From positions 4,465-44,464 of the forward strand of contig NZ_VIAQ01000007.1 of assembly GCF_006546655.1 (NCBI RefSeq): DNA of 40,000 nt, given 5' to 3'. This DNA comes from Methanolobus vulcani (lineage in GTDB: Archaea > Halobacteriota > Methanosarcinia > Methanosarcinales > Methanosarcinaceae). Of the stretch, positions 8,417 through 32,340 are shown piece by piece (the stretch's first letter is position 1; each line of letters begins with the position of its first letter). The position numbers and the translations under genes were made by a program. Below the pieces are notes generated by a model. It saw only the letters and a list, made by a program, of their open reading frames with translations. It ran no database searches and had not been told where the DNA came from.

Positions 8417-10471
8417 TTGAAACTGAATTTGAAAAACATTACAATAAGTAAAAAGATCATTGCACTTGCTTTGATCCTTACTATTTTGCCCGTGACTGCA
8501 GTCGGAATATTTGCTTACGAGCAGACTTCTACTGCTATCAGGGAACAACTTCATGAAAGACTTGATGAGCAGGTGTTCATGGAAGAAAAATACGTAGCAA
8601 CTGTATTTGAGGTTGCAGATGAAACACTTGAATCTAATATAGGTGTTGCAAGGATCAATTTATACAATTATGGAACCCCTTCAATATCAGATAATAATCT
8701 TGTCTTTGGGGACACTGTTGTTAATGGAAATAATGAACTTGCAGATCTTATAAAAGAAGAGACAGGTTCTGATTCAACAATTTTCCAGGTATCTGGTAGT
8801 TCAGCAGTCCGCATTGCTACAACCATATTAGATGAAAGTGGAAACCGTGCTCTTGGAACAGCTGTTTCTCAGGAAGTTTATCAAACAGTTGTACAGAGAG
8901 GGCAGGCCTATATGGGTCAGGCAACTGTGCTTGGTGAACCTTTCCTTACAAGATACGAACCTATCCAGGATAGTTCAGGAAAGACCATAGGTATTATTTC
9001 TGTAGCAATTCCTCAAGAACACTATCGTCAGATAATCAAGGAACAGATGGAATCCATCACCTTTGGTGAAACAGGTTACATGTATGTAATAGACACCGAT
9101 GGTGACGTTATTATTCACCCAACCAGTGAAGGTGAAAACCTTCTTTCAAACGATTTCGTTAAGACAATGGTTTCAGAAAAGGAAGGAAGGCTCAATTATG
9201 ACTGGGAAGGTCGTGAAAAGGCTATTAGTTTTGCATACTATCCAGAGAATGACTGGATTATTGCATCCGGTACATACGTTGATGAGTTTGAGGCTCCAGT
9301 AAGGGCTATCAGGAATGGTCTTATTGCTGCTATCCTTGTATTCATCGTGCTTGGTTCCGCAGCAGGAATTTTCATAAGCAGAACAATCTCAAAGAGCGTT
9401 GAAGGAATCGTCACAGACTTCAAGAAAATATCTGATGATGCAATGGAAGGCAGGATTAATTCCAGAGCAGAAACCGATGTAGATATTGACTTTACAGCAA
9501 TTCCGCTGGGTCTTAATGATATTCTTCAAACTTTAACTGGTGTCATTGATGTTGTAAGTAAGAGTGCAGATAATGTTGCTTCAACCTCACAGGAAATGTC
9601 TGCAGCAATAGAGGAAACAACAGCTGCAACTACTCAGGTTGCTGATACTGTAAATGAGATTGCAAGAGGTTCACAGGAGCAATCCGCAAGATCAGAAGAT
9701 GTTGCAAGAACAATGAATGACATGACTGTTGGTGTGCAGGACATTGCAAGCAATGCGCAACTGGCAGCAGAAGCAGCAAACGCTTCAAGAGACTTCATCA
9801 CGGAAGTCGGCAATCAGTCAAGAGATATGCTTGTTCAGATGGATGCTATTCAGAACGCTACAAACGACTCTGCAAATGTTATCAGAGATCTTGAGGGCAA
9901 ATCAAACCAGATAGGCGAAATCGTACAGCTTATTACAAGTATAGCTGACCAGACAAACCTGCTTGCTCTTAATGCTGCTATTGAAGCTGCAAGAGCAGGA
10001 GAACATGGACGTGGATTTGCTGTTGTAGCAGACGAAGTAAGAAAACTTGCTGAAGATTCTGGAGCTGCAGCTTCACAGATTTCTGAGCTTATTGCAGAGA
10101 TTCAGGACGGAACACATGCAGCAGTCGATTCAATGGACTCCGGTACTAAAACAGTGACAGAAGGTGTGACCGCACTTTCAGGTACTGTAGAAGCTGTCCA
10201 GAAGATCGTAGAGGAAAGTAACAGGGTTGCTCAGATGGCAGAGAATATTGCTGCTGCTGCTGAAGAGCAATCTGCTTCCATCGAAGAAGTCACTGCAACT
10301 GTTGATGAAGTCGCTTCTATCTCACAGCAAGCAGCAGCCGGTACGGAGGAAACTTCCGCAGCAGTTGAGCAGCAGAATGCATCCATGCATGAGCTTGCAA
10401 AGAGTTCACAGGAACTTGCTCAAATGGCTGCTGAGATGCAGGAATTTGTTGCAAAATACCAAACAGAGTAA
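8417..10471 (+). CDS. Methyl-accepting chemotaxis protein (Cache-type sensor, HAMP, MCP signalling domain)
   Basis: 684 aa with a TTG start. An N-terminal TM segment is followed by a periplasmic sensor ([16 protein letters not shown] is Cache-like) and a second TM ([18 protein letters not shown]). The highly conserved hairpin tip is present: [38 protein letters not shown]. Confidence 0.9.
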
Positions 10472-10644
10472 TCTCAAGAAGGGTTTTTCCTTCTTCACTC
10501 TTTTTTTAGTTAACCTATTTTCTTTTTAATATTATTTTCTTCTCTATTTTTTGTGTTTATTATATAAAAAGATATTAAGTTAGTACTAAATTTTTATTTG
10601 CATTGCGTTACAGCATAGCGAAAAACTGCAATTTCCCTCACTAG

Positions 10645-10656
10645 TTTTATATATTT
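10645..10656 (+). promoter_or_regulatory. TATA box candidate for chemoreceptor gene 2
   Basis: ttttatatattt followed by gagctgtagtatat. This is paralogous to the motif at 8288-8300. Confidence 0.4.
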
Positions 10657-10759
10657 GAGCTGTAGTATATATCACTGTTCAACTAATACACAAAAACGAA
10701 TTAAGGACATTTTACATCTGTTCATAATTCTTTTTAAAATTATAACATGGTGATTTAAA

Positions 10760-12823
10760 TTGAAAAAATCTTCCTTCAATCTGAAAAATATATCTATTAA
10801 CAAAAAGATCATTGCTCTTGCATTGATACTTAGTATTTTACCGGTAACTGCTCTTGGAATATTCGCTTATGAAAAGGCTTCAACTGCCATAGAAGAACAG
10901 TTATATGAAAGACTTGATGAACAAGTATGGATGGAAGAACAGTATATAGAAGCTGTTTTTTCAGTCGGCCAGGAAAGTCTGGATTCAAATTTGGGTGTGG
11001 CACGCAATAGTTTCTATTCATTAGGTAACCCTATGATATCAGATGGGAATCTATTATTTGGTGATTATGTTGTCAATAGTAACTATGATGTCATTGACGA
11101 AATAAAAACAGAGACTGGTGGAGATCTTACTATATTCCAGGTAAAGGATGGTTCAGCTGTTCGTGTCTCAACTACTATCAAGAGTAGTAGTGGAAATCGT
11201 GTAGTAGGTACCAGTGTATCCAATGCTGTCTATCAGACAGTTGTGCAGGGAAGCCAGACCTATTCAGGAAGAGCTGATGTGCTTGGTGAATGGTACATGG
11301 GTACCTATGAACCTATAAAGGACACCTCAGGAAAGATAATTGGTATTCTCTTTGTTGGTCTTCCTGAAGAGCATTATACACAGGAAATCAGAGAACAGAT
11401 GTTAGATATCACAGTTGGTGAAACTGGATATATGTATGCGATGGATTCCGAGGGTAACCTTTTGATTCACCCTACCGACGAAGGCGAGAATATGTATCAG
11501 GACGCTTTCATACAGGAAATGATTGCAAATAAAGAAGGTAGGATTAGTTATGTTCTGGATGGTCGCCAGAAAGTAATGAGTTATACCTACTATGATGATA
11601 AGGACTGGATTGTTGCAACCGGTACATATGTCGATGAGTTCGAAGCTCCTGTAAGAGCTATCAGGAACGGTATTATAGCAGCTGTACTTGTGTTTGCTAT
11701 TCTTGGCTCTGTAGCAGGTGTTCTTATCAGCCGATCAATATCCAAAGGTGTAGAGGGAATCGTCTCAGACTTCAAGAAAATCTCCGATGATGCAATAGAA
11801 GGTAAGATCAATTCCAGAGCAGAAACCGATGTAGATATTGACTTTGTAGATATACCACACGGTCTTAATGAGATTCTTGCTACACTGACAAATGTAATTG
11901 GTGTAGTTAGCAAGAGTGCAGAGGGTCTTGCTTCAACATCACAGGAAATGTCTGCAGCAATAGAGGAAACAACAGCTGCAACTACTCAGGTCGCTGACAC
12001 TGTAAATGAGATTGCAAGAGGTTCACAGGAGCAGTCTGCAAGATCAGAAGATGTTTCAAGAACAATGAATGACATGACTGTTGGTGTGCAGGACATTGCA
12101 AGCAATGCGCAACTGGCAGCAGAAGCAGCAAATGCTTCAAGAGACTTCATTACGGAAGTCGGCAATCAGTCAAGAGATATGCTTGTGCAGATGGATGCTA
12201 TACAACATGCTACCAACGATTCTGCAAATGTAATCAGAGAGCTTGAGGGTAAATCAAACCAGATCGGTGAGATCGTACAACTTATTACCAGTATTGCGGA
12301 CCAGACAAACCTGCTTGCTCTTAACGCTGCTATTGAAGCTGCAAGGGCAGGAGAGCATGGACGTGGTTTTGCTGTTGTAGCAGATGAGGTAAGAAAACTT
12401 GCTGAAGACTCTGGAACTGCAGCATCACAGATTTCCGGACTTATCGCAGAGATACAGGATGGAACTCATGCAGCTGTAGACTCAATGGAAGCTGGTACCA
12501 GAACAGTAACACAAGGTGTAAGTGAACTTACAGGTACTGTAGAAGCTGTCCAGAAAATCGTAGAGGAAAGTAACAGGGTTGCTCAGATGGCAGGTAATAT
12601 TGCTGCTGCTGCTGAAGAGCAATCTGCTTCCATCGAAGAAGTCACTGCAACTGTTGATGAAGTCGCTTCTATCTCACAGCAAGCAGCAGCTGGTACGGAG
12701 GAAACTTCCGCAGCAGTTGAGCAGCAGAATGCATCCATGCATGAGCTTGCAAAGAGTTCACAGGAACTTGCCCAGATGGCTGCTGAGATGCAGGAATTTG
12801 TTGCAAAATACCAAACAGAGTAA
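10760..12823 (+). CDS. Methyl-accepting chemotaxis protein, tandem paralogue of 8417-10471
   Basis: 687 aa with a TTG start and the same architecture. The C-terminal ~300 aa are almost identical to the upstream paralogue, while the sensor half is clearly diverged. Confidence 0.9.
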
Positions 12824-13739: not shown

Positions 13740-14114
13740 TATTATTCTATTACCGCTTCCTTGCAATGTTTGCAATGGTGCTACAAAAATACCCATCGTT
13801 CCATAAAGTGTGTTCTTCCCAATAATATTGTTTTAAATGTAACTCATTTTGTTCTCATAAACGATATGTCGATTCCTGTTTTAAACGCCTAATGATAGAA
13901 TCCTATATTTCGGCTCACTCTTGACGAGTAAATGAATATGGTCTTTGTCTGTCTTCATTTCCACAATTTCAAAATTAGATTTTGTAGCAATCTTTGACAA
14001 TGAATTTTTTAACTCATTTTCACTACCAATCGAAACATTCTGTCTATATTTACAGACAAAAATAACATGGTACAATAACAAAAACTTACTATGGTTTTTC
14101 CTTTTATACTCCAC
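13740..14114 (-). pseudogene. tnpA: IS200/IS605 Y1 (HUH) transposase TnpA, decayed
   Basis: ORF 13881-14114 gives ...LLLYHVIFVCKYRQ...DKDHIHLLVKSEPK, containing the HUH motif, then stops at 77 aa. The expected C-terminal piece (..HTLWNDGYFCSTIANIARKR) is readable further downstream in another frame, around 13740-13810. This means at least one frameshift or stop separates the HUH part from the Tyr-containing part. Confidence 0.65.
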
Positions 14115-14169
14115 AATATCATCTCATTAACATAAAGTATAAATAACGTTAACTCTAGTATATGTTTGT

Positions 14170-15291
14170 ATGTTAAGAGCTTACAAGTATAGGATGTATC
14201 CTACAAAAGAGCAAGAAGAGATGTTCTTTCAACATTTCGGAGCATGTAGATACATCTATAATTGGGCTTTAGAACAGAAAATTAAGACATACGAACAGAA
14301 CGGTAAATCAATATCAAGATTTGACCTGAATAAAGGAATATCAATGTTAAAAAGAGATGGAGAACACGAATGGCTCAAAGATGTTAATTCGCAGTCATTA
14401 CAGGGTGCTACTCTTAATCTCGATAATGCTTTTACAAGATTTTTCCGTGAAAAGAAGGGATTCCCGAAATTTAAATCTCGAAAAAATCCAGTACAGGCGT
14501 TCAATGTTCCTCAAAATTATAAGGCTGATATTGAAAATAACAGGATATATCTCCCGAAAATAGATTACATCAAAACTATTTTTCATCGACCTTTAGGAGA
14601 TGGAGACTTAAGAACCGCTACAGTAACACGTACACCCACTGGAAAATATTACATTAGTATTCTTGTAGATGATGGTGCGGAAATTCCGAAAAAACCGAAA
14701 TTTTCCGTAAACGATACTGTGGGAATAGATGTAGGTATCAAGGATTTCGCTATCACTTCAAATGCTGATAAAATCAACAATCCAAGACACCTTAAAAACT
14801 CCATGAAGAGACTTAAAGTTCTATCAAAACGCCTATCTAAAAAACAGAAATGCTCAAAGAACAGAAATAAAGCTCGTCAACAAGTAGCTAAGCTCCACGG
14901 AAAAATAAGCAATCAGAGACACGATTTCCAACATAAAGTTTCAACAAAGCTTGTTAGCGAGAACCAAGCAATAGCAGTAGAAACCCTTAATGTGTCTGGT
15001 ATGCTTAAAAATCACTGTCTAGCTCAACACATAGCTGACGCATCGTGGACTTCCTTCATAACAAAACTCGAATATAAAGCCGAATGGTACGGAAAGACAA
15101 TTCTCCGTATTGGAAGATTCGAGCCGAGTACAAAAATCTGTAATGTCTGTGGCTACTACAACAGTTCCATAACATTAGCAGATAGAGAATGGGAATGCCC
15201 GGATTGTAATACTCATCACGATAGAGACATAAATGCCGCTATCAACATTAAGAAATTTGCTCTCCAAGAGCAGAACTTGATAGGAATATAA
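14170..15291 (+). CDS. tnpB: TnpB (IS200/IS605 OrfB) RNA-guided RuvC-type nuclease
   Basis: 373 aa starting MLRAYKYRMYPTKEQ. The split RuvC has GIDVGIKDFA (D), AIAVETLNV (E) and HDRDINAAINI (D). A zinc ribbon is present: CNVCGYYN...WECPDCNTHH. Confidence 0.9.
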   Translation: MLRAYKYRMYPTKEQEEMFFQHFGACRYIYNWALEQKIKTYEQNGKSISRFDLNKGISMLKRDGEHEWLKDVNSQSLQGATLNLDNAFTRFFREKKGFPKFKSRKNPVQAFNVPQNYKADIENNRIYLPKIDYIKTIFHRPLGDGDLRTATVTRTPTGKYYISILVDDGAEIPKKPKFSVNDTVGIDVGIKDFAITSNADKINNPRHLKNSMKRLKVLSKRLSKKQKCSKNRNKARQQVAKLHGKISNQRHDFQHKVSTKLVSENQAIAVETLNVSGMLKNHCLAQHIADASWTSFITKLEYKAEWYGKTILRIGRFEPSTKICNVCGYYNSSITLADREWECPDCNTHHDRDINAAINIKKFALQEQNLIGI

Positions 15292-15462: not shown

Positions 15463-16230
15463 TCAAACTTCAACTACCATGAGGTCTTTTGCGATTATGA
15501 CCTCGCCTTTGTAGTATTTTTTTATGTGGTCTGTTGCTTCGCCATAATGTCCCTGCATATGTGGATAAAGGTGTGTAAGATAGAGTTTTTTTGCGGTTAA
15601 AGGATATTTTTCCATCATGAGAGTAAGCATGTCAGGTGTGGTGTGGTTGGTCATGGGGAATTCCAGCGGGAAGGAGCATTCGTGTATGAGTACATCCACG
15701 TCCTCTGCCAGTTCCATGACATCGTTGCAGGGTTCAGTATCTCCAGTGTAGACCACAGTACTGCTGTTGCTCTTGATACGATAGGCAAGGGAATTGTCGG
15801 TGTGTACCGTCTTAGCACATCTGATGGTACAGTTGCAATCCCCGTTAGTGCTCTGTGGTGTGAATTCATCCCCTGGCGAGAGTTCTGTGATCTCTACTGT
15901 GAATTTGTCCTTGAGATAGTCATAGACGTTAAGGGTCTTCTCAAACCATTCACGTGTTCCCTTTGGCCCGTATAACCGCATGTCTGTCCTTCCTACAAGC
16001 CAGTTGGCCTTGATGAGTGCCAGTACATCTCCTACGTGGTCAAGGTGCAGATGTGTGAGTATTATGGCATCAATGTCTTTATGATCATGCCCGCTCTCGT
16101 AAATTCTTCCAAGAACACCGCAGCCGCAGTCAAAAAGCAGGAGATTCTTCTCTGTATCCAGCAGTATTCCGGATTGCACCCTTCCATCCTGTGGTATGCC
16201 AGTACCTGTGCCAAGAAACGTTATTTCCAT
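15463..16230 (-). CDS. MBL-fold metallo-hydrolase (RNase Z/ElaC-like size class)
   Basis: 255 aa. HLHLDHVGD (the HxHxDH motif), with later H/D ligands in VYTGDT and LIHECSF. Confidence 0.8.
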   Translation of the reverse strand: MEITFLGTGTGIPQDGRVQSGILLDTEKNLLLFDCGCGVLGRIYESGHDHKDIDAIILTHLHLDHVGDVLALIKANWLVGRTDMRLYGPKGTREWFEKTLNVYDYLKDKFTVEITELSPGDEFTPQSTNGDCNCTIRCAKTVHTDNSLAYRIKSNSSTVVYTGDTEPCNDVMELAEDVDVLIHECSFPLEFPMTNHTTPDMLTLMMEKYPLTAKKLYLTHLYPHMQGHYGEATDHIKKYYKGEVIIAKDLMVVEV

Positions 16231-16316
16231 ACCTGCTATAATAAGACTTAAGTAACTTAATTGTTATTATCTGGTGTTCAAAACCACATGACCGGCATTC
16301 CACTACTATTCTAACT

Positions 16317-16400
16317 GCGAGGGTTGCCCAGCTGGTCAAAGGCGCCGGACTTAAGATCCGGTATCGAAGGATTTCGAGGGTTCAAATCCCTCCCCTCGCA
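16317..16400 (+). tRNA. tRNA-Leu (anticodon UAA), class II with a long variable arm; no encoded CCA
   Basis: Folded by hand. The acceptor stem is GCGAGGG/CCCTCGC with discriminator A. The anticodon stem is CCGGA/TCCGG with loop CTTAAGA. The variable region is TATCGAAGGATTTC. The T arm is GAGGG-TTCAAAT-CCCTC. Confidence 0.9.
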
Positions 16401-16410
16401 TCGCTTCTAA
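16397..16410. repeat. Left copy of the casposon target-site duplication (cgcatcgcttctaa, 14 bp; 15 bp if the next g is counted)
   Basis: An identical string is found at 29023-29036. The first 4 nt are the last 4 nt of tRNA-Leu. Confidence 0.85.
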
Positions 16411-16440
16411 GGGATATAGGTAACTCAGAAAAATGCAACT
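16411..16440. repeat. Left terminal inverted repeat of the casposon
   Basis: gggatataggtaactcagaaaaatgcaact is the exact reverse complement of 28993-29022. Weaker similarity continues about 10 nt further inward. Confidence 0.9.
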
Positions 16441-16540
16441 TTTAAAAATAAATTGGTGCTAAGTGACTATCTGTGCGAAGTATAAGAATTCTTTAACAAA
16501 AGAAAAATTATATCAGCTTTGAAGAAAGTATAGCTGTTTG

Positions 16541-19500
16541 ATGGCAGATAACGATGAGTTTAATGTTTCTACCGATAACGAGGATAGAGCACAATTTGTA
16601 ACAACTGCATTAAGTTCAGTGCCTTTTGTTGGTGGATTGATATCTGCTTCTGCAAACTACGTAATAAAAAAAAGACAAGACAAAAGATTGTCTGAAGCTT
16701 TAAACAAATTTATTACCAATAACATAGAAAAAAAGGTTGAAGATTCAGATTCTAAATACTTATCTCTTCATAATGACTATTTATCTCTTCAGGATGATTT
16801 TAGATCCTTTGAGGATAATTTTGATGAACTCAAAGCTGGCATTAAATCGATTGAATCACAAAACTTCGAAAGTGAGTATCAATATCTATTGGAATCACTT
16901 CGAGAAAACGTTAAGGAAAATAATCCTACAGAAGCTTTGAAGCGCCTTGGAAATCTAAAAAGTAAAATTTGGGATAAATCACCATCTAACATAAGATATG
17001 CTTTGTTATCTATTGAAGCATCAGCAAACTTAAAGTTAAATAGATATCAAGATGCAGGGAAGCTTTTGATAGAAGCTTTTCAATATAGTAGTATTGAAAA
17101 GGCTATGGTCAATGCTGCATACGGATATTTTTTATTGAATGATTATTTAAATTCAAAAAAATTAGTTGAAGAAGTATTGGAAAATAATCCCACTAATGCT
17201 CGCGCATTCTCGATTCTGATACAAATGTTTACAACTGAAGAAGAATTAGATGCTATTCCCGACTACTTAAAAGAAACACAAGATGTAGCTTATGCTATTG
17301 GAAACTTTTTTTTGAAGATAAACAAATTTGAAGAAGCAATAAAGTGGTTAGAAATAGCTATCGTTAATGAAAAAGAAACTATTATAGAAATGCGGCCTCT
17401 CTTAGCAAGCATTTTACTTGATATGATTTTGTCCGATTCAGAAAAAATTCAAGAATTTCAATTAAATGAAAAAGATAAGAATACACTTAAAAAAGTGATC
17501 GATCTGATTACAACCTCATGGAATTCCATTTCAGATCCAAATCTTCAGAAAATACATGTTGATTGGATAGTTAACAGATGTATTGCCAAACACCTTTTAG
17601 GTAATCAGGACGGTTTTAAAGATGATATAAATGATGCTTTTAAGTTCGATCCATCTGATTCAAGGATTATTTATTTTAAAGCTTTAATGGTACTAGAGCA
17701 CAATGAAATCGAAAAAGCTATTTCTTTACTAAAAGATATTGATTTTGACAAAACCATACCTGAAGTACCATTATTATATTTTGACCTATTAAGAAAACAA
17801 GGCAAATTTGCTGACGCAATTACTGAAATTAATGATTTTTTGGAACAAAATGAAGATTTCCAAAAAATAGATTTCCTCTATAGAATTCTTATTTATACAT
17901 ACCTCGACTCTGATGTTGAATCTGAAAATTGTGTTGAAAAAGCAATAGATCTAGCTGATAGTAGAGTAAAAGCCGATCCAACAAACATTGAAAACATAAT
18001 AGATTTGTCACAATGTCTGGCTAAATCCGGACAGATTGATTCGTCAAAGTCCCATCTAATCAATGCTAAAAATATTATTTCTGATTTTACCCCAACTATT
18101 CATTTAATGGAATTAGCAGATGTTTTTTTCAGATTAAATTTATTTGATGATGCATCTGAAATTTATCAAAAATTTGTTGACTCAACTCAAGTTACAGATT
18201 TAACTCACAAACTTGTAGAATCATATTACCGATGTGGGGATATTGGAAAAGCCCTTGAAATATCTAAATCATTAAGGGAAGAGTTCGGTATTATTGATCA
18301 TATTACAAATATTGAAATTGCAATATATCATGATATAGATGATCTTTCTGAGGCTAAAAAAGTTCTAACTGAATATATTTCCAAATATCCAGATGATATG
18401 GATATGAAATTGAATCTAGCTTATTTAAATCTTAGATGTAATAACTTAGGTGATGTCGAGAACTTTTTAAATACATCATTTGATATTAAGTCGTTATCTA
18501 TCGAAAATGGCATACGTTTAGCTCTTTTATTCAATGAAAGAGGATATTTCAAAGAAGCAATTGATATCCTATATGAAATACGGAGATACAATTTTGAGAA
18601 TGAGAATGTTCATGTCGCTTACATTAAATTAATTCTTTTTAATGAAAAAGAAGAGCGTGAAAATTGGTTATCCCCAGAAAAAGTAGATGCAAATACTGTT
18701 GTAATACTTGAAGAAGATGCAGGAAAACAAGTAACCTACATCTTAGATGATCGAAGTGATGTAGATTTCCAAAAAGGAGAGATTGGACTAGAATCCCCCT
18801 TAGCTAAACTTATTTTCGGAAAAACAAAAGGTGACAAGATTACGCATAAAACTTCTTTATCTCAAGAAATACTTGAAGTAAAGGATATTAAAAGCAAATA
18901 TATCCATGCATTCCAAGAGAGTTTAGATAAATTTAATTACCTATTTCCTGACACACAAGCGTTAACAAAAATCTCCTTCCCAAAAATTGAGGAGGAGGGA
19001 ATCCCTCAAGACTTCCTAAAAACTATTACTGATGTTGTAGTCTTAAGAACGGAAAATAATTCAAAAGCTATAGAATTATATCTTGATAAAAAACTGCCTA
19101 TTGGAACTCTTGCAACCATAATCGGCCAAACAATTTTTGATGTCTGGTTTGAATTTACAAAAAATGAAGATTTAGGAATTTATTGCTCAATTGGAAACAG
19201 TCAAGAAATCAATGAAGCTTTAAACAATCTTGAAAATAGTTCTAAAATTGTAGTCGATCCACTTTCTCTCATCACTGTTTTTACATTAAATATTGGAGAT
19301 TTAATTGTAGATAGTTTCGGCAAGTTAGGTATTGCCCAATCAACAATTGACTTACTTCATGAAACACTTATAGAACAAAAAAAGATTTATTCAAGAGTAC
19401 ATGGTTTTTTAGTAAATGATGATAAGAACCTCATTTTCAAAGAGACTGATTCAAAAGATGTTGAAGAAAAAATAAATGTATATGAACAAATGTTAAATTG

Positions 19501-20164
19501 GATTCCTAAAATTTGTGAAATTATACCATGCAAAGAAGCTCTTTCTCTTAAAAAAGATAAAAAGAAAGAATATGATGATTTACTTGGAAGAGCATTTGTT
19601 GATACTATTCTTATTGCAACCGAAAATGAGAATATTTTATGTACTGAAGATAAAGTGCTTCGTTCAATTGCTAAACAAGAATTTAATGTTGATGGGATCT
19701 GGACTCAACCTTTACTCTTACATTTTCTAAATAATGATATCATTGATCGTAACCAATATAACGAATTGACAATTAAATTGGTAAATTTGCATTATTACCA
19801 CACCACTATCAATTCAGAAGTTTTAGTAGAAGCAGCAAGAAAAACAAATTGGAAAATTGAAGATTCTCTTAAGAATTTTTTGAATATTCTTCGCGGAAAA
19901 AACTGTGATGAAGACTCTGCATTAGCTGTGAGTACGCATTTTCTTTCTGCAATTTGGAATGAAAAAATACCTAGAGAAGATTTGTATGTTCTAACTTTGA
20001 ATTTACTAAGTGTTATTGTTCAAGAAAGATTTGCACCATTTATTATCGATAAAATAAAAAATAGAGTTAATATAAACATCCATTTATTTTCTTCAGAAGA
20101 TCGAGAGGAGATCCTTGAATTAATTAGCTTATGGGAAGCTATTTACTATAAATCCATTTTGTAA
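16541..20164 (+). CDS. Giant cargo protein: N-terminal hydrophobic Gly-rich helix, coiled coil, long TPR array, GreA/B C-terminal-like domain, C-terminal PIN-like nuclease domain
   Basis: ATG at 16541. TPR-like repeats run through most of the length. The GreA/B-C-like block lies at about 18674-18900: VVILEEDAGKQVTYILDDRSDVDFQKGEIGLESPLAKLIFGKTKGDKITHK. The PIN-like block lies at about 19240-19700, with KIVVDPLSL (Asp1), LLHETL (Glu), and AFVDTILIATENENILCTEDKVL (Asp3 plus the T-x-D motif). Confidence 0.7.
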   Translation: MADNDEFNVSTDNEDRAQFVTTALSSVPFVGGLISASANYVIKKRQDKRLSEALNKFITNNIEKKVEDSDSKYLSLHNDYLSLQDDFRSFEDNFDELKAGIKSIESQNFESEYQYLLESLRENVKENNPTEALKRLGNLKSKIWDKSPSNIRYALLSIEASANLKLNRYQDAGKLLIEAFQYSSIEKAMVNAAYGYFLLNDYLNSKKLVEEVLENNPTNARAFSILIQMFTTEEELDAIPDYLKETQDVAYAIGNFFLKINKFEEAIKWLEIAIVNEKETIIEMRPLLASILLDMILSDSEKIQEFQLNEKDKNTLKKVIDLITTSWNSISDPNLQKIHVDWIVNRCIAKHLLGNQDGFKDDINDAFKFDPSDSRIIYFKALMVLEHNEIEKAISLLKDIDFDKTIPEVPLLYFDLLRKQGKFADAITEINDFLEQNEDFQKIDFLYRILIYTYLDSDVESENCVEKAIDLADSRVKADPTNIENIIDLSQCLAKSGQIDSSKSHLINAKNIISDFTPTIHLMELADVFFRLNLFDDASEIYQKFVDSTQVTDLTHKLVESYYRCGDIGKALEISKSLREEFGIIDHITNIEIAIYHDIDDLSEAKKVLTEYISKYPDDMDMKLNLAYLNLRCNNLGDVENFLNTSFDIKSLSIENGIRLALLFNERGYFKEAIDILYEIRRYNFENENVHVAYIKLILFNEKEERENWLSPEKVDANTVVILEEDAGKQVTYILDDRSDVDFQKGEIGLESPLAKLIFGKTKGDKITHKTSLSQEILEVKDIKSKYIHAFQESLDKFNYLFPDTQALTKISFPKIEEEGIPQDFLKTITDVVVLRTENNSKAIELYLDKKLPIGTLATIIGQTIFDVWFEFTKNEDLGIYCSIGNSQEINEALNNLENSSKIVVDPLSLITVFTLNIGDLIVDSFGKLGIAQSTIDLLHETLIEQKKIYSRVHGFLVNDDKNLIFKETDSKDVEEKINVYEQMLNWIPKICEIIPCKEALSLKKDKKKEYDDLLGRAFVDTILIATENENILCTEDKVLRSIAKQEFNVDGIWTQPLLLHFLNNDIIDRNQYNELTIKLVNLHYYHTTINSEVLVEAARKTNWKIEDSLKNFLNILRGKNCDEDSALAVSTHFLSAIWNEKIPREDLYVLTLNLLSVIVQERFAPFIIDKIKNRVNINIHLFSSEDREEILELISLWEAIYYKSIL

Positions 20165-20244: not shown

Positions 20245-22878
20245 TTAAGTAATTATTGATGCAATTCTTTTAATAGCTGGTGTATTAAGATTGATATCCT
20301 TATTCACCAGAATCCTATCCTTTATCCTCTTGAAAGTACCTCGATCTACTCCCCATTCTTCAACTTGTGATTGAGACAATTCAAGTATCTTTCTCATAAT
20401 ACATCCCTTGTAAATGAATACCTGTGAACGCTTAACATCTAGGGCCTGTTCATCAATGTTGTTGGCTTCCTTGCCAATGTAAACAACTCCATCAGCGTGA
20501 ACATGCTTTCTCTCAAGAACCCCAGTATTTCCATCGAACTTATGCTCAAGGTGTTCAGCATATTGCATTATTGTCTTGCTCAATGGCTTGAAATAACGAG
20601 ATCCTTCTTTGATTTCCCCTGTCTCATAATCAATGAATGGCTCATACACAGTCTTCTGAGAATCTGTAGAAAAAGGCATCAAAGGTTTTACTGCCTTCCC
20701 GTTTTCTTCAAGTGCCTGGAATCCTACAAGATAGAAATTGAAAGGCTTGATCTGGTCATTCCATTCCTTACCTGCATTGAATCCCTTGAACCTTCTCAGA
20801 ACATTTGGAGTTGAAACAGTTAGTCTTGAGATTGCATACAAACCTGAATATTTCTCTTCAATATCAATTCCTGAGATTATTCCATAATTCAATTTGAGAA
20901 GATCTTCCCATATCTCAGCCTGCCAATCATCAACAGTTTTTGGGAATGGATTTGTTAAATGCCCAAGTCCATGTAACTTGAAAGACCTCTCACCTTCCAT
21001 AAACTTGATTGTACCATTCTCATAAGTATAAAGGGCATATCGCTTAGAGGAAATGCCATAGAACCACATGTCTTCTTTTTCAGCCTTCAACAGATCAATA
21101 TCAAGGTTGTATGGGTTAAGAGGCTGGAAATAGTTTATGATCTCCTGGGCATGTTCAGGAGGAACAAAGATGGAATCAGTATCCATATATGCATGAACTG
21201 AACCCAACTCTTTTACTTTGGCTTCTGCCATTGCTAAGAATAACTTTGACCCTGCTGTAATCATGACAGCAAGCAAAGGATGGAAGTAATTGCCTGCTTT
21301 CTCAAACCTGTTCTCAGAGGTATTGAAGTCATCCAAACCATAAACCTGAATATCGCTTTTCTTATCCTCTGGATTAAGTTCAATGAAAATACCATAGCTT
21401 GTGGCATTAACAAGTATTTTGATAGCCTGTGCTCTGCTTTTCTCTTGTTGTTTGATTTTTTGCCTTTCCTGAACAAGTACCTGAACCAGATTGTCCTTTG
21501 AAGGATCAATATCAATTCCAAGTATCTGACTAGTCCTTAATCCCTTCTGAACACCCTTTGGAATATACTTGATAGCTTCAACGATCTTTGGAACTTTGCC
21601 TGTAAGAATAACTGAAGCTATAACATCAGGAAGAGCATACCACAATTCAGAATCAGAACTTAGATAATTAACCCCAACGTTATAGCCTGCTCCAGAGCCT
21701 TTGTAATCCATCCTTACAGGCAATATGTCATTGTCAGGTACAATCTTAACCATTACAACAAAATCTTTCCAGTTATCTTTATTTTGAAGATAATCAAGAT
21801 CCACTTTTGAGAGCATGTCCTTAATCTCATTAGTAACAACCTTCATCTCAAGGGATTCAGCAATCATGAACTTCCAGAGATCCATCATCATTGTAACGGT
21901 TGGATACATGCTTGTAAAATCAAGAACTGTGACCTTTGTTGGTTGTTTTCTAATCTTACATTCACACCTTCCACCATAATAAGAGGTCATGATGTTTCCG
22001 ATCATCTCTGAAGGAAATTCAGGATTTAGATCTAAAAACGATTGAATGCCCAGTTGTTTTAGAGCATGTTTTCCTATTGAAGCAGAACTGAAGATTCTGG
22101 TTGGTGGGATGTTTATTTGATAACGATCCAACTCATCAATGAGCTTTTCATAGACATGATATGTTGTTTCAACATCTTGAATTAGATAATCAATATATCT
22201 CTTGGTTACTTTACCATGTTCAATTCCCTTCATCTTTTTGATGGGAGTATTGAGCTTCTCACCTGCTTTTTCAAGTGAGATATGTTTTGATTGAAGAAGC
22301 ACCTCAGCCAGCTTTTGAGCATCAAGATAATATCCTGAAAAATACTCTTCACCTTTGTTCTCTTTGGTTGTTGTCAACTTGAAAGTATAGGCATCTCCCA
22401 TCTTTTTAACAATGATAGGAGGATTTAATTTGTTCTCTGAAAGAGTAAAAGTAAAACCACCTTTGTTTCTTCCTCTTGATTCTCCAACTCTTTTCGAGAT
22501 CTTACTGGTGTCAAAAGGCAGATTGAAACCAATACAAAGAGCATGCCTCCTAAATATTTCTGTGTAAAAAACATTATCTATAAACTCATCCAAAAGGTAA
22601 AGGGGAATTTCATTCATTCTTGCATAAGCTGAAAAAGCATTTTTCTCATTTTCAGTTAGCATTGAAGGATCATAGAACAATCCTTCATGCTGAATGTAGC
22701 CTTCCTTGTATATCTGAAAGAAGCCAATCTTGAAATTCTGATATTGATCTATTGTTGTTTCTGTATCAAATACCAAAACCCTATCATGCCTTAATGGGTC
22801 TTCTCTTGGTCTAAAGAAAGGATTGCCTGAAGATACCTTGACCTTCAGAGTATATCCCCTTACTGCAATGTTAGACAT
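20245..22878 (-). CDS. polB: Family B DNA polymerase of the protein-primed type, with a C-terminal HTH tail
   Basis: 877 aa. Exo I VLVFDTETT, Exo II GFNLPFD, Exo III YLIQDVETT, Pol A LDFTSMYPT, Pol B KILVNATSYG, Pol C YMDTDSI and KxY SKRYALY. The extra C-terminal ~50 aa read GVDRGTFKRIKDRILVNKDINLNTPAIKRI. Confidence 0.9.
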   Translation of the reverse strand: MSNIAVRGYTLKVKVSSGNPFFRPREDPLRHDRVLVFDTETTIDQYQNFKIGFFQIYKEGYIQHEGLFYDPSMLTENEKNAFSAYARMNEIPLYLLDEFIDNVFYTEIFRRHALCIGFNLPFDTSKISKRVGESRGRNKGGFTFTLSENKLNPPIIVKKMGDAYTFKLTTTKENKGEEYFSGYYLDAQKLAEVLLQSKHISLEKAGEKLNTPIKKMKGIEHGKVTKRYIDYLIQDVETTYHVYEKLIDELDRYQINIPPTRIFSSASIGKHALKQLGIQSFLDLNPEFPSEMIGNIMTSYYGGRCECKIRKQPTKVTVLDFTSMYPTVTMMMDLWKFMIAESLEMKVVTNEIKDMLSKVDLDYLQNKDNWKDFVVMVKIVPDNDILPVRMDYKGSGAGYNVGVNYLSSDSELWYALPDVIASVILTGKVPKIVEAIKYIPKGVQKGLRTSQILGIDIDPSKDNLVQVLVQERQKIKQQEKSRAQAIKILVNATSYGIFIELNPEDKKSDIQVYGLDDFNTSENRFEKAGNYFHPLLAVMITAGSKLFLAMAEAKVKELGSVHAYMDTDSIFVPPEHAQEIINYFQPLNPYNLDIDLLKAEKEDMWFYGISSKRYALYTYENGTIKFMEGERSFKLHGLGHLTNPFPKTVDDWQAEIWEDLLKLNYGIISGIDIEEKYSGLYAISRLTVSTPNVLRRFKGFNAGKEWNDQIKPFNFYLVGFQALEENGKAVKPLMPFSTDSQKTVYEPFIDYETGEIKEGSRYFKPLSKTIMQYAEHLEHKFDGNTGVLERKHVHADGVVYIGKEANNIDEQALDVKRSQVFIYKGCIMRKILELSQSQVEEWGVDRGTFKRIKDRILVNKDINLNTPAIKRIASIIT

Positions 22879-24446: not shown

Positions 24447-24986
24447 GTGATGGATTCAAAACAACTTGACAATTTAGTTACTATACTTTATGATAAATCC
24501 AATGTTAGAATTATAGATAATATTTTGAGTATTCTCTACAAACATATTATTGTAAAAGAAATACTCCCTTCTGATAAAGATAATTTACTGAAAGTTCTGA
24601 AAAAACTCCTATACAAATTCCCAGAAGCTCATCCAAATTATTCAATGATTAGGAGGCATATTCTTCGACTTCTTGGATATTATGAGGATTATGCTGTCGT
24701 TGAGCAATTAATCAAAGATACTGAAAATGGTAGATTACCACAATTCAAAAACGATTATTTGACTAATTTTACAACAAATATTATTGAAGTAGGCAGAATT
24801 GAACTATTCGAACTTGAAGTAAAGGTGAGAAAATCAGGTGATGAAAAGACAGCTGAAAGTTTGAATGAGATCAGGAATTACGCTATAGAAAATTTAAATG
24901 AATCTGGAATAAAAAACCCATTAGAAGCTATTAAGGGTGGAAATCTAAATATTCAATTTAGTGGAATCAAGGGGATCAAAAAATGA
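24447..24986 (+). CDS. Alpha-helical protein of unknown function, translationally coupled to cas1
   Basis: 179-aa ORF. Its stop overlaps the cas1 ATG (ATGA at 24983-24986). The reading frame is also open for 50 codons upstream, with no canonical ATG/GTG/TTG start there (see findings). Confidence 0.55.
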   Translation: MMDSKQLDNLVTILYDKSNVRIIDNILSILYKHIIVKEILPSDKDNLLKVLKKLLYKFPEAHPNYSMIRRHILRLLGYYEDYAVVEQLIKDTENGRLPQFKNDYLTNFTTNIIEVGRIELFELEVKVRKSGDEKTAESLNEIRNYAIENLNESGIKNPLEAIKGGNLNIQFSGIKGIKK

Positions 24987-26185
24987 AATTCCTTCTTCTA
25001 AACGGTCATGGAATCGACATGCGAGTAAATGGGGCTAAACTACACATTAAGGATGGAAGATTCTCAACAACTGATGAACCAGAGGAATATGTATTCTCTC
25101 CAAAGAGGATGGATGTTGATAGCATCATTATCTATGGTAAAAATGGAAATCTTACACTTGATGCCATCCGATGGCTCATTAAACATAATGTACAGATATC
25201 AATTCTCAATTGGGATGGAAAGTTATTGACAACAATGCTCCCTCCTGATAGCACTAATGTAAAAACGAAATTTGCACAATACCATGCATATGAGACTCAA
25301 GAGAATAGAATAAAGATAGCAAGGGCCCTAGTTGAGGCTAAAGTTGATAAATCAACTGTTGTGCTTGAGTACCTAAATCAACGTTATTCTACTGTTGATT
25401 TTGATTTATCAACGGATGTTGATAAGCTAAAGAAGGTCAACTCAATAGTTGAAATAATGGGTGTTGAAGGCGGTATTGCTTACAAATACTGGCATGAGTT
25501 CTCAAAGGTCATTCCTGAGAAGTATGATTTTGAATCTAGAATCGATTCGAGTCGGAGGGCCACAGGGGCAGGGGATATGGTAAATGCTATGCTAAACTAT
25601 GGTTATGCTTTGCTAGAAGCGGAATGTCTTAGGGCTATCAATGCTGTTGGCTTAGATCCTCATGTTGGTTTTTTACATGAAATGAATACTGGAAAGAACA
25701 GCTTGGCTTACGACCTGCAAGAACCATTTAGATTCCTTGTTGATCTAGCGGTTATCAACCTTGTTGAGTCTGAGAGAATGGAAAAGAAGGATTTCATCAG
25801 GACAGAGAATTATTCGCTCAAACTTAGACCTAGTGGAGCTAAGAAGCTAACTAAAGAGCTCAATCTATGGTTCAACAAGAGAGTTAGTTACAAAGGAAAT
25901 ATGACTATGTGGAGTTATGTTCTGTTCCTGAAAACTAGAGAATTGGCTCAGTATTTAGTTGGTAAACGTCAGAATGTTGATTTCATAAAACCACGATATG
26001 AGGCTAAACGACAGGACTCAAACGACATACGACAGAAGATATTGAGTATTTCTTATTCCGATTGGAAAAAGCTAGGTTTCTCTAAAGGTACGTTGCATTA
26101 TATGAAGAAAAATGCTAAGGCAGATAAGCCTTTTACTTTGAATGCTCATGTTAGGGAAAGGTTGGAATTATGGGAAGGATGTTAA
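24983..26185 (+). CDS. cas1: Casposase (Cas1-family integrase with a C-terminal HTH)
   Basis: 400 aa. The Cas1 catalytic-region motifs are GVEGGIAYKYW (Glu), DPHVGFLHE (His) and LAYDLQEPFRFLVD (acidic). The C-terminal extension is ISYSDWKKLGFSKGTLHYMKKNAKADKPFTLNAHVRERL. Confidence 0.9.
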   Translation: MKFLLLNGHGIDMRVNGAKLHIKDGRFSTTDEPEEYVFSPKRMDVDSIIIYGKNGNLTLDAIRWLIKHNVQISILNWDGKLLTTMLPPDSTNVKTKFAQYHAYETQENRIKIARALVEAKVDKSTVVLEYLNQRYSTVDFDLSTDVDKLKKVNSIVEIMGVEGGIAYKYWHEFSKVIPEKYDFESRIDSSRRATGAGDMVNAMLNYGYALLEAECLRAINAVGLDPHVGFLHEMNTGKNSLAYDLQEPFRFLVDLAVINLVESERMEKKDFIRTENYSLKLRPSGAKKLTKELNLWFNKRVSYKGNMTMWSYVLFLKTRELAQYLVGKRQNVDFIKPRYEAKRQDSNDIRQKILSISYSDWKKLGFSKGTLHYMKKNAKADKPFTLNAHVRERLELWEGC

Positions 26186-26203: not shown

Positions 26204-26701
26204 ATGTATATGAGATTCAAAGAAGAATATTTCTTTTGTAGTCCTAAGTTGCTTAGAAACATCCCAGAAGTAAATGAAATCTTTGAATGCATAAAAGCTG
26301 TTAAATGGCAACCCGAGTTTAAGCTGGAAGACAAAAATCACCAATCTGCTTATAACAAAGCTTTTGAACAGGAATTTTCTAATTATCTTTGGTCTAATAA
26401 ACCATTACTTAATGACAATCCAAAATTGATTGGAGACTTTCAGAAAAACGATGTTTTTGTTGAAATTCAGTTTGGAAATAGTGCTACTATTTATCGTGAT
26501 TACTATAAATTCCATTATGGGCTAGCAAATAAACTACTATCTTTAGCAGTATTGATTGTTCCAACAAACCCAAAAAAGTTTTTTCCAACTCGAAAATCAA
26601 GTGTCAGTAACATGGCAGAATTTGATTTTGCTTACAAATACTTCAATTTACTTCCAATTCCTGTTCCTATATTATTGATAGGATTACTGCCTGAAAATTG
26701 A
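26204..26701 (+). CDS. BglII-like restriction-endonuclease-fold protein with no partner methyltransferase
   Basis: 165 aa. GDFQKNDVFVEIQFGN gives D-x8-E-x-Q, the spacing I remember for the BglII active site (Asp84, Glu93, Gln95). Confidence 0.45.
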   Translation: MYMRFKEEYFFCSPKLLRNIPEVNEIFECIKAVKWQPEFKLEDKNHQSAYNKAFEQEFSNYLWSNKPLLNDNPKLIGDFQKNDVFVEIQFGNSATIYRDYYKFHYGLANKLLSLAVLIVPTNPKKFFPTRKSSVSNMAEFDFAYKYFNLLPIPVPILLIGLLPEN

Positions 26702-26921: not shown

Positions 26922-27404
26922 TTAGGAATCTTTAAATTCTATTTTCGTACTTGGGATAACATCATAGTTATTAGTGTCTGTTGTAATATCGGTTATTTCT
27001 ACGTTATCTGACCCTTCAACAATTAATGTAATCGAAGTTTTCTCTTCTGGATTAAGATTCTTAATGAATACTTCCGCATAATTTCCATTTCCACCTAGTA
27101 TTGTTACATCAGCACTTCCGTATTCTGAAACATTGGTAATGTACCCATTCGTATGTATTTCAAAATAGACATGTTGCGCAATTCCATCGCCTTTATTCTT
27201 CAAATAAACAGTAATGTCATATGTGTCTGGGGATATCTCTTGTGTTGAAGATGTAAATAATAAATCTGGGTGAGGAGCAAAAAAACCTGCAATAGCCTTT
27301 GCTATAAAGATGACAGAAACCCCTATGATAATACCAATTATTAATGTCTTTGTTGTAGATTCACAGTTTTTCTGATTAGACTCCATTGCTATACAGTAGG
27401 ACAC
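26922..27404 (-). CDS. N-terminally membrane-anchored beta-rich protein
   Basis: 160 aa with one TM segment (LIIGIIIGVSVIFIAKAIAGFF). An alternating-pattern beta-rich ectodomain follows (ITVYLKNKGDGIAQHVYFEIH, ITLIVEGS). Confidence 0.5.
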   Translation of the reverse strand: MSYCIAMESNQKNCESTTKTLIIGIIIGVSVIFIAKAIAGFFAPHPDLLFTSSTQEISPDTYDITVYLKNKGDGIAQHVYFEIHTNGYITNVSEYGSADVTILGGNGNYAEVFIKNLNPEEKTSITLIVEGSDNVEITDITTDTNNYDVIPSTKIEFKDS

Positions 27405-28815: not shown

Positions 28816-28992
28816 ATTAGGTAAATAGAGTTTATTGCATAAAAATCTTGTATGGGTAATAATTATTATTTCGATTTTCAAACGAAACAATTAAAATTTA
28901 AAATATAAGTTCCGTTTTTTTGTGTTAACTATATCCCTAATCTAAAATACTAAGGGTACAATTCGAACCTTTTAAAATACAATTCTTAAAAG

Positions 28993-29022
28993 AGTTGCAT
29001 TTTTCTGAGTTACCTATATCCC
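28993..29022. repeat. Right terminal inverted repeat of the casposon
   Basis: agttgcatttttctgagttacctatatccc is the exact reverse complement of 16411-16440. Confidence 0.9.
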
Positions 29023-30165: not shown

Positions 30166-30170
30166 TCAAT

Positions 30171-32338: not shown

Positions 32339-32340
32339 CT

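What the first reader, a model, noticed from the sequence alone, without database searches (positions are those of the whole stretch)
16541..20164. Casposon cargo: 1207-aa TPR / GreA-B C-terminal-like / PIN protein, a candidate single-gene conflict (defence or addiction) system
The first gene inside the left TIR is not a replication or integration function. Four parts can be read in it:

- A short hydrophobic Gly-rich N-terminal helix (ALSSVPFVGGLISASANYVI).
- A coiled coil and a very long TPR-like array.
- A block that matches the GreA/GreB C-terminal domain signature: G-x-IS/L-x-x-SPL-x-x-x-L-x-GK-x-x-GD, here GEIGLESPLAKLIFGKTKGDKI.
- A C-terminal PIN-like nuclease with the acidic residues in the expected contexts (IVVD, HETL, FVDTILIATE, LCTEDK).

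A sensor-like repeat array joined to a polymerase- or nucleic-acid-binding module and an RNase-type effector has the logic of abortive-infection proteins. I recall, without being able to verify it here, that a TPR-GreAB-C-PIN architecture has been noted in comparative-genomic surveys of conflict systems. I know of no experimental characterisation, and none in a casposon.
Basis: partly seen in the sequence, partly recalled or inferred. Interest (0 to 1): 0.8.

Follow-up and report, generated by a model that had tools for sequence, protein, structure and literature searches.

The report
Known-type antiviral gene riding a casposon
The 1207-residue gene is a genuine member of an already described family of predicted antiviral proteins (TPR repeats + GreA/B C-terminal domain + PIN nuclease, "TGP"); what is new is only that this copy, from an archaeon, travels as cargo of a casposon transposon.

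Summary
Pfam finds TPR repeats, GreA_GreB C-terminal (35 bits) and the dedicated model PF20698, "PIN domain associated with the TPR-GreAB-C-PIN system" (77 bits). AlphaFold models plus Foldseek confirm both folds.

The gene is the first one inside the left TIR of a 12.6-kb casposon in tRNA-Leu of Methanolobus vulcani.

The architecture is not new. Kaur et al. 2021 defined it, and an E. coli member (Agp, with Bab) protects against phage T5, so "no experimental characterisation" is outdated.

Context supports defence:
- A 61%-identical relative lies in a second casposon.
- A 47%-identical relative is inserted in a type I R-M operon.
- N-terminal modules across the family are swappable effectors.

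Still open:
- Whether a Gre-type domain docks on archaeal RNA polymerase.
- What the short, unique N-terminus does.
- Whether the gene serves the host or the casposon.

Verdict: a new member of a known kind in a new mobile context; moderate interest.

The parts
16541..20164 (+). TGP gene (TPR + GreA/B-C + PIN), 1207 aa plus stop codon; NCBI names the product 'GreA/GreB family elongation factor'
16601..16666 (+). Residues 21-42, the Gly-rich, moderately hydrophobic segment FVTTALSSVPFVGGLISASANYVI. The first 40 residues have no counterpart in the closest relatives.
16889..18610 (+). TPR-like solenoid, residues about 117-690; the presumed sensor or scaffold
18677..18892 (+). GreA/GreB C-terminal-type domain, residues 713-784, including ESPLAKLIFGKTKGD
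   Evidence: Pfam 35.2 bits; aligns to E. coli GreA 1grj; Foldseek matches to GreA/GreB/Gfh1/Rnk, probability 1.00
18893..19249 (+). Helical linker, residues 785-903, with family-invariant K786 (123/123) and conserved Y787, A790, F802, P803, Y847, G885
19250..19675 (+). PIN nuclease domain, residues 904-1045; acids D906, D937, D1021, E1036 (acidic, D or E, in all relatives) and D1037
   Evidence: PF20698 76.9 bits; conservation 92-100%; Foldseek matches to PIN proteins
19676..20161 (+). Conserved all-helical C-terminal tail, residues 1046-1207 (W1054, Q1056, Y1073, L1080, W1104, F1134); no known fold matched
16316..16402 (+). tRNA-Leu (anticodon taa), the integration target; its 3' end forms the target-site duplication
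16394..16411 (.). Left copy of the target-site duplication (CCTCGCATCGCTTCTAAG); the second copy is at about 29020-29037
   Evidence: family D3
16411..16443 (.). Left terminal inverted repeat of the casposon
   Evidence: pair I4: 33 nt, 97% complementary
28990..29022 (.). Right terminal inverted repeat of the casposon
   Evidence: pair I4
20245..22878 (-). Casposon family B DNA polymerase, convergent with the TGP gene
   Evidence: PF03175
22871..23212 (-). HNH endonuclease, a casposon core gene
   Evidence: sequence motif; PADLOC HNH models
24983..26185 (+). Cas1 casposase
   Evidence: PF01867, 236.8 bits

Best explanation
The gene encodes a member of the TGP (TPR + GreA/B C-terminal + PIN) family of stand-alone prokaryotic immune proteins. 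It is carried as accessory cargo at the left end of a family-2-type casposon integrated in tRNA-Leu of Methanolobus vulcani.

Shown here:
- The domain composition and both folds.
- Conservation of the PIN catalytic acids.
- The casposon frame.
- Occurrence of close relatives in a second casposon and inside a type I R-M operon.

Inferred from the family model (Kaur et al. 2021) and from the E. coli Agp experiments:
1. The TPR array holds the protein in an inactive state until infection is sensed.
2. The GreA/B-C domain docks the protein at the secondary-channel (funnel) side of the host RNA polymerase.
3. The PIN domain then cleaves transcripts at or near the polymerase. This blocks expression of the invader and possibly of the cell (abortive infection).

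This copy lacks the roughly 150-residue N-terminal module of its closest relatives and has no recognisable effector there. PIN is therefore probably its only enzymatic effector. By protecting its host, the gene also favours retention of the casposon.
For: Family membership:
- PF20698, PF01272 and TPR hits lie in the canonical order.
- The C-terminal 527 residues align end to end with 2,448 cluster representatives, most about 1,300 aa long.

Folds: Foldseek matches GreA/GreB/Gfh1 and PIN proteins, using models with pLDDT 83-86.

Catalytic site: D906 98%, D937 D/E 92%, D1021 D/E 95%, position 1036 D/E 100%, D1037 98%.

Variable N-terminal effectors in relatives: Mrr-like REase in 73 of 112, plus PNP phosphorylase, NNH5, SMEK, calcineurin-like phosphoesterase and HD-CE. 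Kaur et al. described the same pattern.

Experiment in the family: Bab/Agp protects E. coli against T5, and GreA/B-C and PIN mutants lose protection.

Context:
- The casposon has a TIR, a TSD, tRNA-Leu, PolB, HNH and Cas1.
- L003 carries a 61%-identical TGP between a casposon TIR and a Cas1 that is 82% identical to the window's.
- P0014 (47% identical) lies between hsdS and hsdM of a type I R-M operon in at least 12 of the contigs read.
- 14 plasmid records carry relatives.
- There is no conserved neighbour gene.
- The gene has the lowest GC of the region: 0.297, against 0.343 for the rest of the casposon and 0.392 for the host flank.
Against: - No function has been tested in any archaeon.
- Archaea have no GreA/GreB, and binding of a GreA/B-C domain to archaeal RNA polymerase has never been shown.
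- In the Agp study the PIN mutant was also destabilised, so a catalytic role for PIN is not cleanly proven.
- This protein lacks the N-terminal effector or adaptor that most family members have. Agp works through such an N-terminal motif and a partner, and neither was found here.
- PADLOC 2.0 has no model that recognises the protein.
- No relative was found in phage genomes or IMG/VR. That fits a host-side defence but is uninformative about the trigger.
Confidence: 0.7

Rival explanations
1. Addiction or selfish-stabilisation module. The PIN nuclease acts as a built-in toxin, kept in check by the TPR part, and is unleashed when the casposon is lost or silenced. It would stabilise the element rather than defend the host.
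For: The gene sits next to the TIR of a mobile element. PIN is the classic VapC toxin fold. The gene recurs in a second casposon.
Against: No antitoxin-like small gene is adjacent; the gene starts 98 nt after the TIR and converges on PolB. A single long-lived polypeptide has no obvious way to sense loss of its own gene. Relatives are chromosomal, lying inside an R-M operon, and mostly stand alone. The family has swappable effector heads typical of immune sensors. The tested member acts against phage.
Confidence: 0.12
2. Decaying passenger. The protein has lost its N-terminal effector domain and is a non-functional remnant of a TGP gene captured by the casposon.
For: Homology to P0004 starts only at window residue 41 (P0004 residue 149). 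The roughly 150-residue N-terminal domain of P0002-P0004 and P0014 is missing, and the first 40 residues are unique. Neighbouring casposon copies in the array are degraded.
Against: A 3.6-kb ORF in 29.7% GC DNA stays open only under selection or if very recent. Every family-conserved residue checked, including all the PIN acids and K786, is intact. A TATA-like TTATAT lies about 28 nt upstream of the ATG.
Confidence: 0.1
3. Weapon between mobile elements. The protein excludes rival casposons, plasmids or integrative elements that compete for the same tRNA-Leu site, rather than viruses.
For: The tRNA-Leu site carries an array of casposon remnants, and L003 shows three tandem TSD-TIR units, so competition at the site is real.
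Against: Nothing in the architecture suggests recognition of casposon-specific features. The only tested family member responds to phage.
Confidence: 0.06
4. Housekeeping transcript-cleavage or elongation factor, as the database name 'GreA/GreB family elongation factor' implies.
For: The NCBI name and weak hits to GreA/GreB NCBIfam models.
Against: Only the C-terminal domain matches. It covers profile positions 77-151 of TIGR01462 and scores 30 bits against a cut-off of 139. The Gre N-terminal coiled coil with the catalytic acidic tip is absent. The protein is about eight times longer than GreA and lies inside a transposon. Archaea use TFS rather than Gre factors (established knowledge).
Confidence: 0.02

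Closest known systems
TPR-GreA/B-C-PIN ('TGP') conflict system: Kaur, Iyer, Burroughs & Aravind, eLife 2021 (PMC8195603, Fig. 2K); Pfam PF20698
   Same: Same constant core in the same order (TPR, GreA/B-C, divergent PIN). It is a stand-alone gene, and the authors noted the system is 'sporadic in archaea'. The C-terminal 527 residues align full-length to the family.
   Different: It has no recognisable N-terminal effector or EAD adaptor, only a unique roughly 100-residue head. It is carried by a casposon, a context not mentioned in that paper (0 occurrences of 'casposon').
Agp of the Bab/Agp abortive-infection system, E. coli ECOR25 (Ibarlosa et al., bioRxiv 10.1101/2024.11.07.622273)
   Same: TGP architecture. 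The GreA-type S-P motif (S752, P753) is retained, with I758 at the GreA Leu position; these should correspond to Agp S628 and L634 by position in the GreA motif (my inference from the 1grj alignment; Agp itself was not aligned). D906, the first PIN acid, is the likely counterpart of Agp D762, also inferred and not aligned.
   Different: Agp signals through an N-terminal BASS11 amyloid motif to an adjacent Bell-like executioner, Bab. No ORF in this window shares the N-terminal motif, and no small neighbour gene exists. Sequence identity to bacterial members is only about 20-35%.
Defence-like cargo of family 2 casposons: AbiF-like, HEPN, RES, retron-type RT and 'TPR' proteins (Krupovic et al., GBE 2016, PMC4779613)
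   Same: It is a variable accessory gene near a casposon terminus in Methanosarcinales. The element is integrated at tRNA-Leu, with tandem arrays of intact and decayed copies.
   Different: TGP was not recognised there. Large 'TPR' proteins were listed without further analysis. Whether those are TGP proteins could not be checked, because no supplement is held.
VapC-type PIN toxins of toxin-antitoxin systems
   Same: PIN fold with four clustered acidic residues; the best structural matches are PAE2754 and VapC4.
   Different: The PIN is embedded in a 1207-aa multidomain protein. It has a beta-hairpin and helical insertions and a 160-residue helical tail, and there is no antitoxin gene.

Membership tests
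TGP (TPR-GreA/B-C-PIN) system | Long TPR array preceding the other two core domains | tested here: met
   Multiple Pfam TPR families between residues about 120 and 690. The array is colinear with its relatives.
TGP (TPR-GreA/B-C-PIN) system | GreA/GreB C-terminal (FKBP-like) domain | tested here: met
   PF01272 scores 35.2 bits, above the 26.9 cut-off. The domain aligns to 1grj. Foldseek top 14 matches are GreA/GreB/Gfh1/Rnk.
TGP (TPR-GreA/B-C-PIN) system | C-terminal PIN of the PF20698 type with conserved catalytic acids | tested here: met
   PF20698 scores 76.9 bits. D906, D937, D1021 and D1037 are conserved. The PIN fold is confirmed by Foldseek.
TGP (TPR-GreA/B-C-PIN) system | Variable N-terminal effector or adaptor domain (EAD10, REase, PNPase, TIR and others) | tested here: inconclusive
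   Relatives carry Mrr-like REase, PNP, NNH5, SMEK, Metallophos or HD-CE. The window protein has only about 100 residues with no family or PDB match, and its first 40 residues are unique.
TGP (TPR-GreA/B-C-PIN) system | Stand-alone gene without conserved partners | tested here: met
   Neighbours differ in every locus examined, and none are homologous to each other.
TGP (TPR-GreA/B-C-PIN) system | Protection against viruses (abortive infection) and binding to RNA polymerase | not testable with these tools
   Protection is known only for E. coli Agp, and RNA polymerase binding is inferred even there. There are no archaeal data.
Casposon (family 2 type) | Cas1 casposase, family B polymerase and HNH gene bounded by TIRs and a TSD, integrated at the 3' end of a tRNA gene | tested here: met
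   Cas1 scores 236.8 bits, and PolB and HNH are present. The TIR is 33 nt at 97% complementarity, with a TSD. The target is tRNA-Leu. Family assignment by Cas1 phylogeny was not done.
GreA/GreB transcript-cleavage factors | N-terminal coiled-coil domain with an acidic tip, in a protein of about 160 aa | tested here: not met
   Only C-terminal profile positions match, and scores of 17-33 bits fall far below the cut-offs of 126-234. There is no GreA_GreB_N hit.
VapBC-type toxin-antitoxin module | Small adjacent antitoxin gene in an operon with the PIN toxin | tested here: not met
   No ORF lies between the TIR (ending at 16443) and the start codon (16541). The downstream gene is the convergent PolB.
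Bab/Agp-type amyloid-signalling pair | Adjacent executioner protein sharing a short amyloid motif with the TGP N-terminus | tested here: not met
   blastp-short of residues 1-60 against all window ORFs of 25 aa or more gives only noise, E above 0.2.

The most novel reading that the evidence does not exclude
Casposons of Methanosarcinales repeatedly carry a portable, single-gene immune protein that surveys RNA polymerase. Its bacterial-type Gre C-terminal domain would have been adapted to dock on the archaeal, eukaryote-like polymerase, which has no Gre factors. In this copy the protein would be reduced to a minimal sensor-nuclease whose short Gly-rich N-terminus is a remnant of, or replacement for, a Bell/'MEPIS'-like cell-death head seen in its closest relatives.
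Probability: 0.25. Interest if true: 0.65.

Novelty: new member of a known kind. Interest (0 to 1): 0.4.

Why it matters
Three things would follow if the gene is functional.

1. It would be a tractable archaeal example of the TGP immune family. It would test whether a GreA/B-C domain can target an archaeal RNA polymerase.

2. It adds a clear immune gene to the cargo of casposons, the elements thought to have given rise to CRISPR adaptation. This supports the view that these transposons persist partly by carrying defence genes. PADLOC 2.0 gave no hit for this protein, so PADLOC-based cargo surveys, such as the one in PMC11551731, would miss it.

3. The database name "GreA/GreB family elongation factor" is misleading and should be corrected.

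Tried and rejected
- A literal literature search for 'TPR-GreAB-C-PIN' found nothing. The papers were reached through 'GreAB-C' and by DOI.
- The M. mazei casposon paper (PMC10359463) does not mention TPR, PIN or GreA.
- PADLOC gave no meaningful hit for the TGP protein.
- The full-length word-index search returned only 8 hits, probably because the TPR repeats swamped the candidate list (my inference). The exhaustive search with the C-terminal half solved this.
- The genome and metagenome scans gave only 2 loci each, probably because the derived peptide patterns were narrow (my inference). IMG/VR and phage genomes gave none.
- N-terminal region:
  - No PDB sequence match for the window head or for the P0003 head.
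  - The last homologue search, with the P0004 head, returned nothing.
  - So the idea that the relatives' MDP/MEPIS-starting heads are Bell/Bab-like rests only on the motif as described in the Bab/Agp paper. It was not tested by alignment.
- No in-window partner shares the N-terminal motif.
- The unannotated neighbours of relatives are not homologous to each other. L013's 534-aa 'neighbour' is just the N-terminal part of a split TGP gene.
- A membrane-helix reading of residues 21-42 is rejected as unsupported by hydropathy.
- L004 has tRNA-Leu directly upstream of its TGP gene but no recognisable casposon TIR. It was therefore not counted as a casposon.
- The supplement of Krupovic 2016 is not held, so the 'TPR' casposon proteins listed there could not be compared.
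Full report
**Observation.** The window holds an uninterrupted ORF at 16538/16541-20164 on the + strand, 1207 aa from the ATG. The gene is 29.7% GC, the lowest in the region: the rest of the casposon is 34.3% and the host flank 39.2%.

Pfam gives the following:
- many TPR families between about residues 120 and 690;
- PF01272 (GreA/GreB C-terminal) at residues 713-784, 35.2 bits against a cut-off of 26.9;
- PF20698 at residues 904-1045, 76.9 bits against a cut-off of 27.8.

PF20698 is described as "PIN domain associated with the TPR-GreAB-C-PIN system". So the four-part reading is right, and the architecture already has its own Pfam model.

NCBIfam hits GreA/GreB models only over their C-terminal halves, far below the cut-offs. 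PADLOC 2.0 gives no meaningful hit. The identical protein is on record from Methanolobus vulcani under the misleading name "GreA/GreB family elongation factor".

**Structure.** An AlphaFold2 model of residues 681-1207, built with 11 homologues, has pLDDT 82.8 and pTM 0.70. Its 14 best Foldseek matches in the PDB are the C-terminal domains of GreA, GreB, Gfh1 and Rnk, with probability 1.00 and rmsd 1.4-3.0 Å over about 75 residues for the tightest matches.

A model of residues 895-1065 alone has pLDDT 85.8. It matches PIN nucleases throughout the top of the list: PAE2754, P. horikoshii VapC4, SMG6, Shigella VapC, Utp23 and HARP/PRORP. E-values go down to 7e-4, and TM-scores reach 0.69 normalised to the target.

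The last 160 residues form a conserved helical tail with no PDB match.

**Conservation.** An exhaustive HMMER search with the C-terminal 527 residues finds 2,448 representatives of 50%-identity clusters at E≤1e-3, and 525 at E≤1e-30. Most are about 1,300 aa long and align end to end.

In 123 full-coverage relatives the PIN acids are strongly conserved:

| Position | Conservation |
|---|---|
| D906 | 98% |
| D937 | D/E 92% |
| D1021 | D/E 95% |
| 1036 | D/E 100% |
| D1037 | 98% |

K786, just after the Gre-like domain, is invariant.

[quoted passage not shown] It has a constant, rapidly evolving core of TPR, GreA/B-C and a novel PIN, and an N-terminal head that is EAD10 or one of 13 effectors. 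The genes mostly stand alone. The authors proposed that GreA/B-C engages the β' coiled coil at the RNA polymerase secondary channel, that PIN cuts the extruded transcript, and that the head triggers suicide if this fails.

Ibarlosa et al. (bioRxiv 10.1101/2024.11.07.622273) showed that the E. coli TGP protein Agp, with its neighbour Bab, gives abortive-infection resistance to T5. Mutations in GreA/B-C (S628L, L634P) and in PIN (D762N) abolish it, although the PIN mutant was also unstable.

My own survey reproduces the variable-head pattern. An Mrr-like REase heads 73 of 112 relatives. Other heads are PNP/UDP phosphorylase, NNH5, SMEK, calcineurin-like phosphoesterase and HD-CE.

**The casposon.** The frame consists of:
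- tRNA-Leu(taa) at 16316-16402;
- a duplicated target sequence at 16394-16411 and about 29020-29037;
- 33-nt TIRs at 16411-16443 and 28990-29022, 97% complementary.

Inside are PolB (20245-22878, −), an HNH gene, Cas1 (24983-26185, 236.8 bits) and a BglII-like nuclease ORF. The TGP gene starts 98 nt inside the left TIR.

Downstream, separated only by the shared TSD, lies a decayed second element with Cas1 fragments and solo TIRs. This is the tandem arrangement described for Methanosarcina casposons at tRNA-Leu (PMC4779613). That paper lists AbiF-like, HEPN, RES and "TPR" proteins among casposon cargo without recognising TGP.

No paper in the library links TGP with casposons, or M. vulcani with casposons.

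**Context of relatives.**
- **P0004** (61% identical) lies in L003 between three tandem TSD-TIR-like units and a Cas1 gene. The best unit reads GGGGATATAGGTAAC at 262-276, and the Cas1 is 82% identical to the window's. This is a second casposon, with the gene in a different position, next to the Cas1 arm.
- **P0003** (63% identical) starts 175 nt after a tRNA-Leu(tag), but no TIR is recognisable.
- **L006**, a Methanosarcina MAG (46% identical), has Cas1 fragments 4-5 kb away.
- **P0014** (47% identical) is inserted between hsdS and hsdM of a type I restriction-modification operon in at least 12 of the contigs read from methanogen assemblies.
- **P0009** is the distal part of a split TGP gene beside an HsdR fragment.
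- **Plasmids and phages.** Fourteen plasmid records carry bacterial relatives, twelve of them conjugative or mobilizable. No phage genome or IMG/VR contig does.
- **Partners.** No neighbour is conserved between loci.

**What is unusual in this copy.** Homology to the closest relatives begins at residue 41, which corresponds to residue 149 of P0004. Their roughly 150-residue head starts MDP…/MEPIS… followed by a Gly-containing hydrophobic helix, and it is absent here.

That head recalls the "MEPIS" N-terminal motif the Bab/Agp paper describes for Bell, Hell, Bab and Avast2. I could not test this: there is no PDB sequence match and no homologues turned up.

The window protein's own segment FVTTALSSVPFVGGLISASANYVI resembles that helix only weakly (E 8.8). 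No 19-residue window of the protein reaches the usual TM hydropathy threshold of 1.6, and the five most hydrophobic windows all lie elsewhere. No other ORF in the window shares the segment. Its role is therefore open: a remnant, a minimal membrane or amyloid element, or nothing.

**Mechanism and rivals.**
- **Best supported (0.7):** a TGP-type immune protein carried as casposon cargo. It would act by RNA polymerase docking and PIN-mediated RNA cleavage, with PIN as the only enzymatic effector in this copy. The docking and cleavage steps are inferred, not shown, and docking on an archaeal polymerase is unprecedented.
- **Addiction module (0.12):** there is no antitoxin and no obvious loss-sensing logic.
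- **Decaying passenger (0.10):** the ORF and all its conserved residues are intact.
- **Weapon between mobile elements (0.06).**
- **Housekeeping Gre factor (0.02):** the defining N-terminal coiled coil is absent.

**Verdict.** This is a new member of a known, named and partly tested family in a new mobile context. Interest is moderate.

Noticed in passing
window 29037-33925: A decayed second (and possibly third) casposon lies in tandem after the shared TSD. It has a left-type TIR at 29037-29055, an N-terminally truncated Cas1 at 31445-32272 (−), a 96-nt copy of the Cas1 3' end at 32350-32445 (+), solo TIR-like sequences at 28907-28937 and 33056-33086, and an inverted TSD-like sequence at 33896-33925.
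   Followed up: partly
window 13881-15291: An IS200/IS605-type element sits just upstream of the tRNA-Leu site. It consists of a TnpB/OrfB gene at 14170-15291 (OrfB_IS605, Cas12f1-like TNB domain) and a short ORF on the opposite strand at 13881-14114 that looks like a TnpA fragment.
   Followed up: partly
window 26204-26701: A 165-aa ORF directly after Cas1 matches the BglII restriction endonuclease fold (Pfam 39.5 bits). No methyltransferase gene is visible in the casposon.
   Followed up: no
window 26922-28890 (−): Two cargo ORFs at the right end of the casposon (160 aa and 446 aa) have no match in Pfam, NCBIfam or PADLOC.
   Followed up: partly
L010 4240-15995 (also L011, L012): In methanogen assemblies a 47%-identical TGP gene splits a type I R-M operon in the order hsdR, DUF3644, hsdS, TGP, hsdM. 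This is a striking insertion of one defence gene inside another system.
   Followed up: partly
L003 140-390: Three tandem units, each made of a tRNA-3'-end-like sequence plus a casposon TIR-like sequence, precede the element. This suggests repeated integration and deletion at one site. The 896-aa ORF between the TIR and the TGP gene has no detectable homologue.
   Followed up: partly
window residues 785-903 and 1046-1207 of the protein (18893-19249, 19676-20161): Two conserved parts of the TGP core lie outside every Pfam hit on this protein. One is a helical linker with invariant K786 (123 of 123 relatives). The other is a 160-residue helical C-terminal tail with conserved Trp, Tyr and Gln residues. 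No PDB match was found for either.
   Followed up: partly
Genome-contig scan: The scan did not return any Methanolobus vulcani contig, although the search pattern YLKETQDVA is present in the window protein. The species-representative genome therefore probably lacks this gene, meaning the element varies between strains. This is an inference only.
   Followed up: no
window 16504-16515: An A/T-rich TATA-like element (AAAAATTATATC) lies about 28 nt upstream of the ATG at 16541. It would fit an archaeal promoter giving a leaderless or near-leaderless mRNA. In-frame GTG (codon 27) and TTG (codon 33) could be alternative starts that place the hydrophobic segment at the very N-terminus.
   Followed up: no
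window 8417-12823: Two tandem paralogous chemoreceptor genes (Cache_3-Cache_2 plus the MCP signalling domain; 684 and 687 aa) lie in the host flank. The rest of the upstream flank is ordinary housekeeping: Maf, URO-D-like, RimK and DJ-1.
   Followed up: no
window 15463-16230 (−): A metallo-beta-lactamase-fold hydrolase lies next to the tRNA-Leu. It has a weak, sub-threshold resemblance to the anti-Pycsar protein Apyc1 (23 bits against a cut-off of 50) and is probably an ordinary host MBL or RNase-Z-like enzyme.
   Followed up: no
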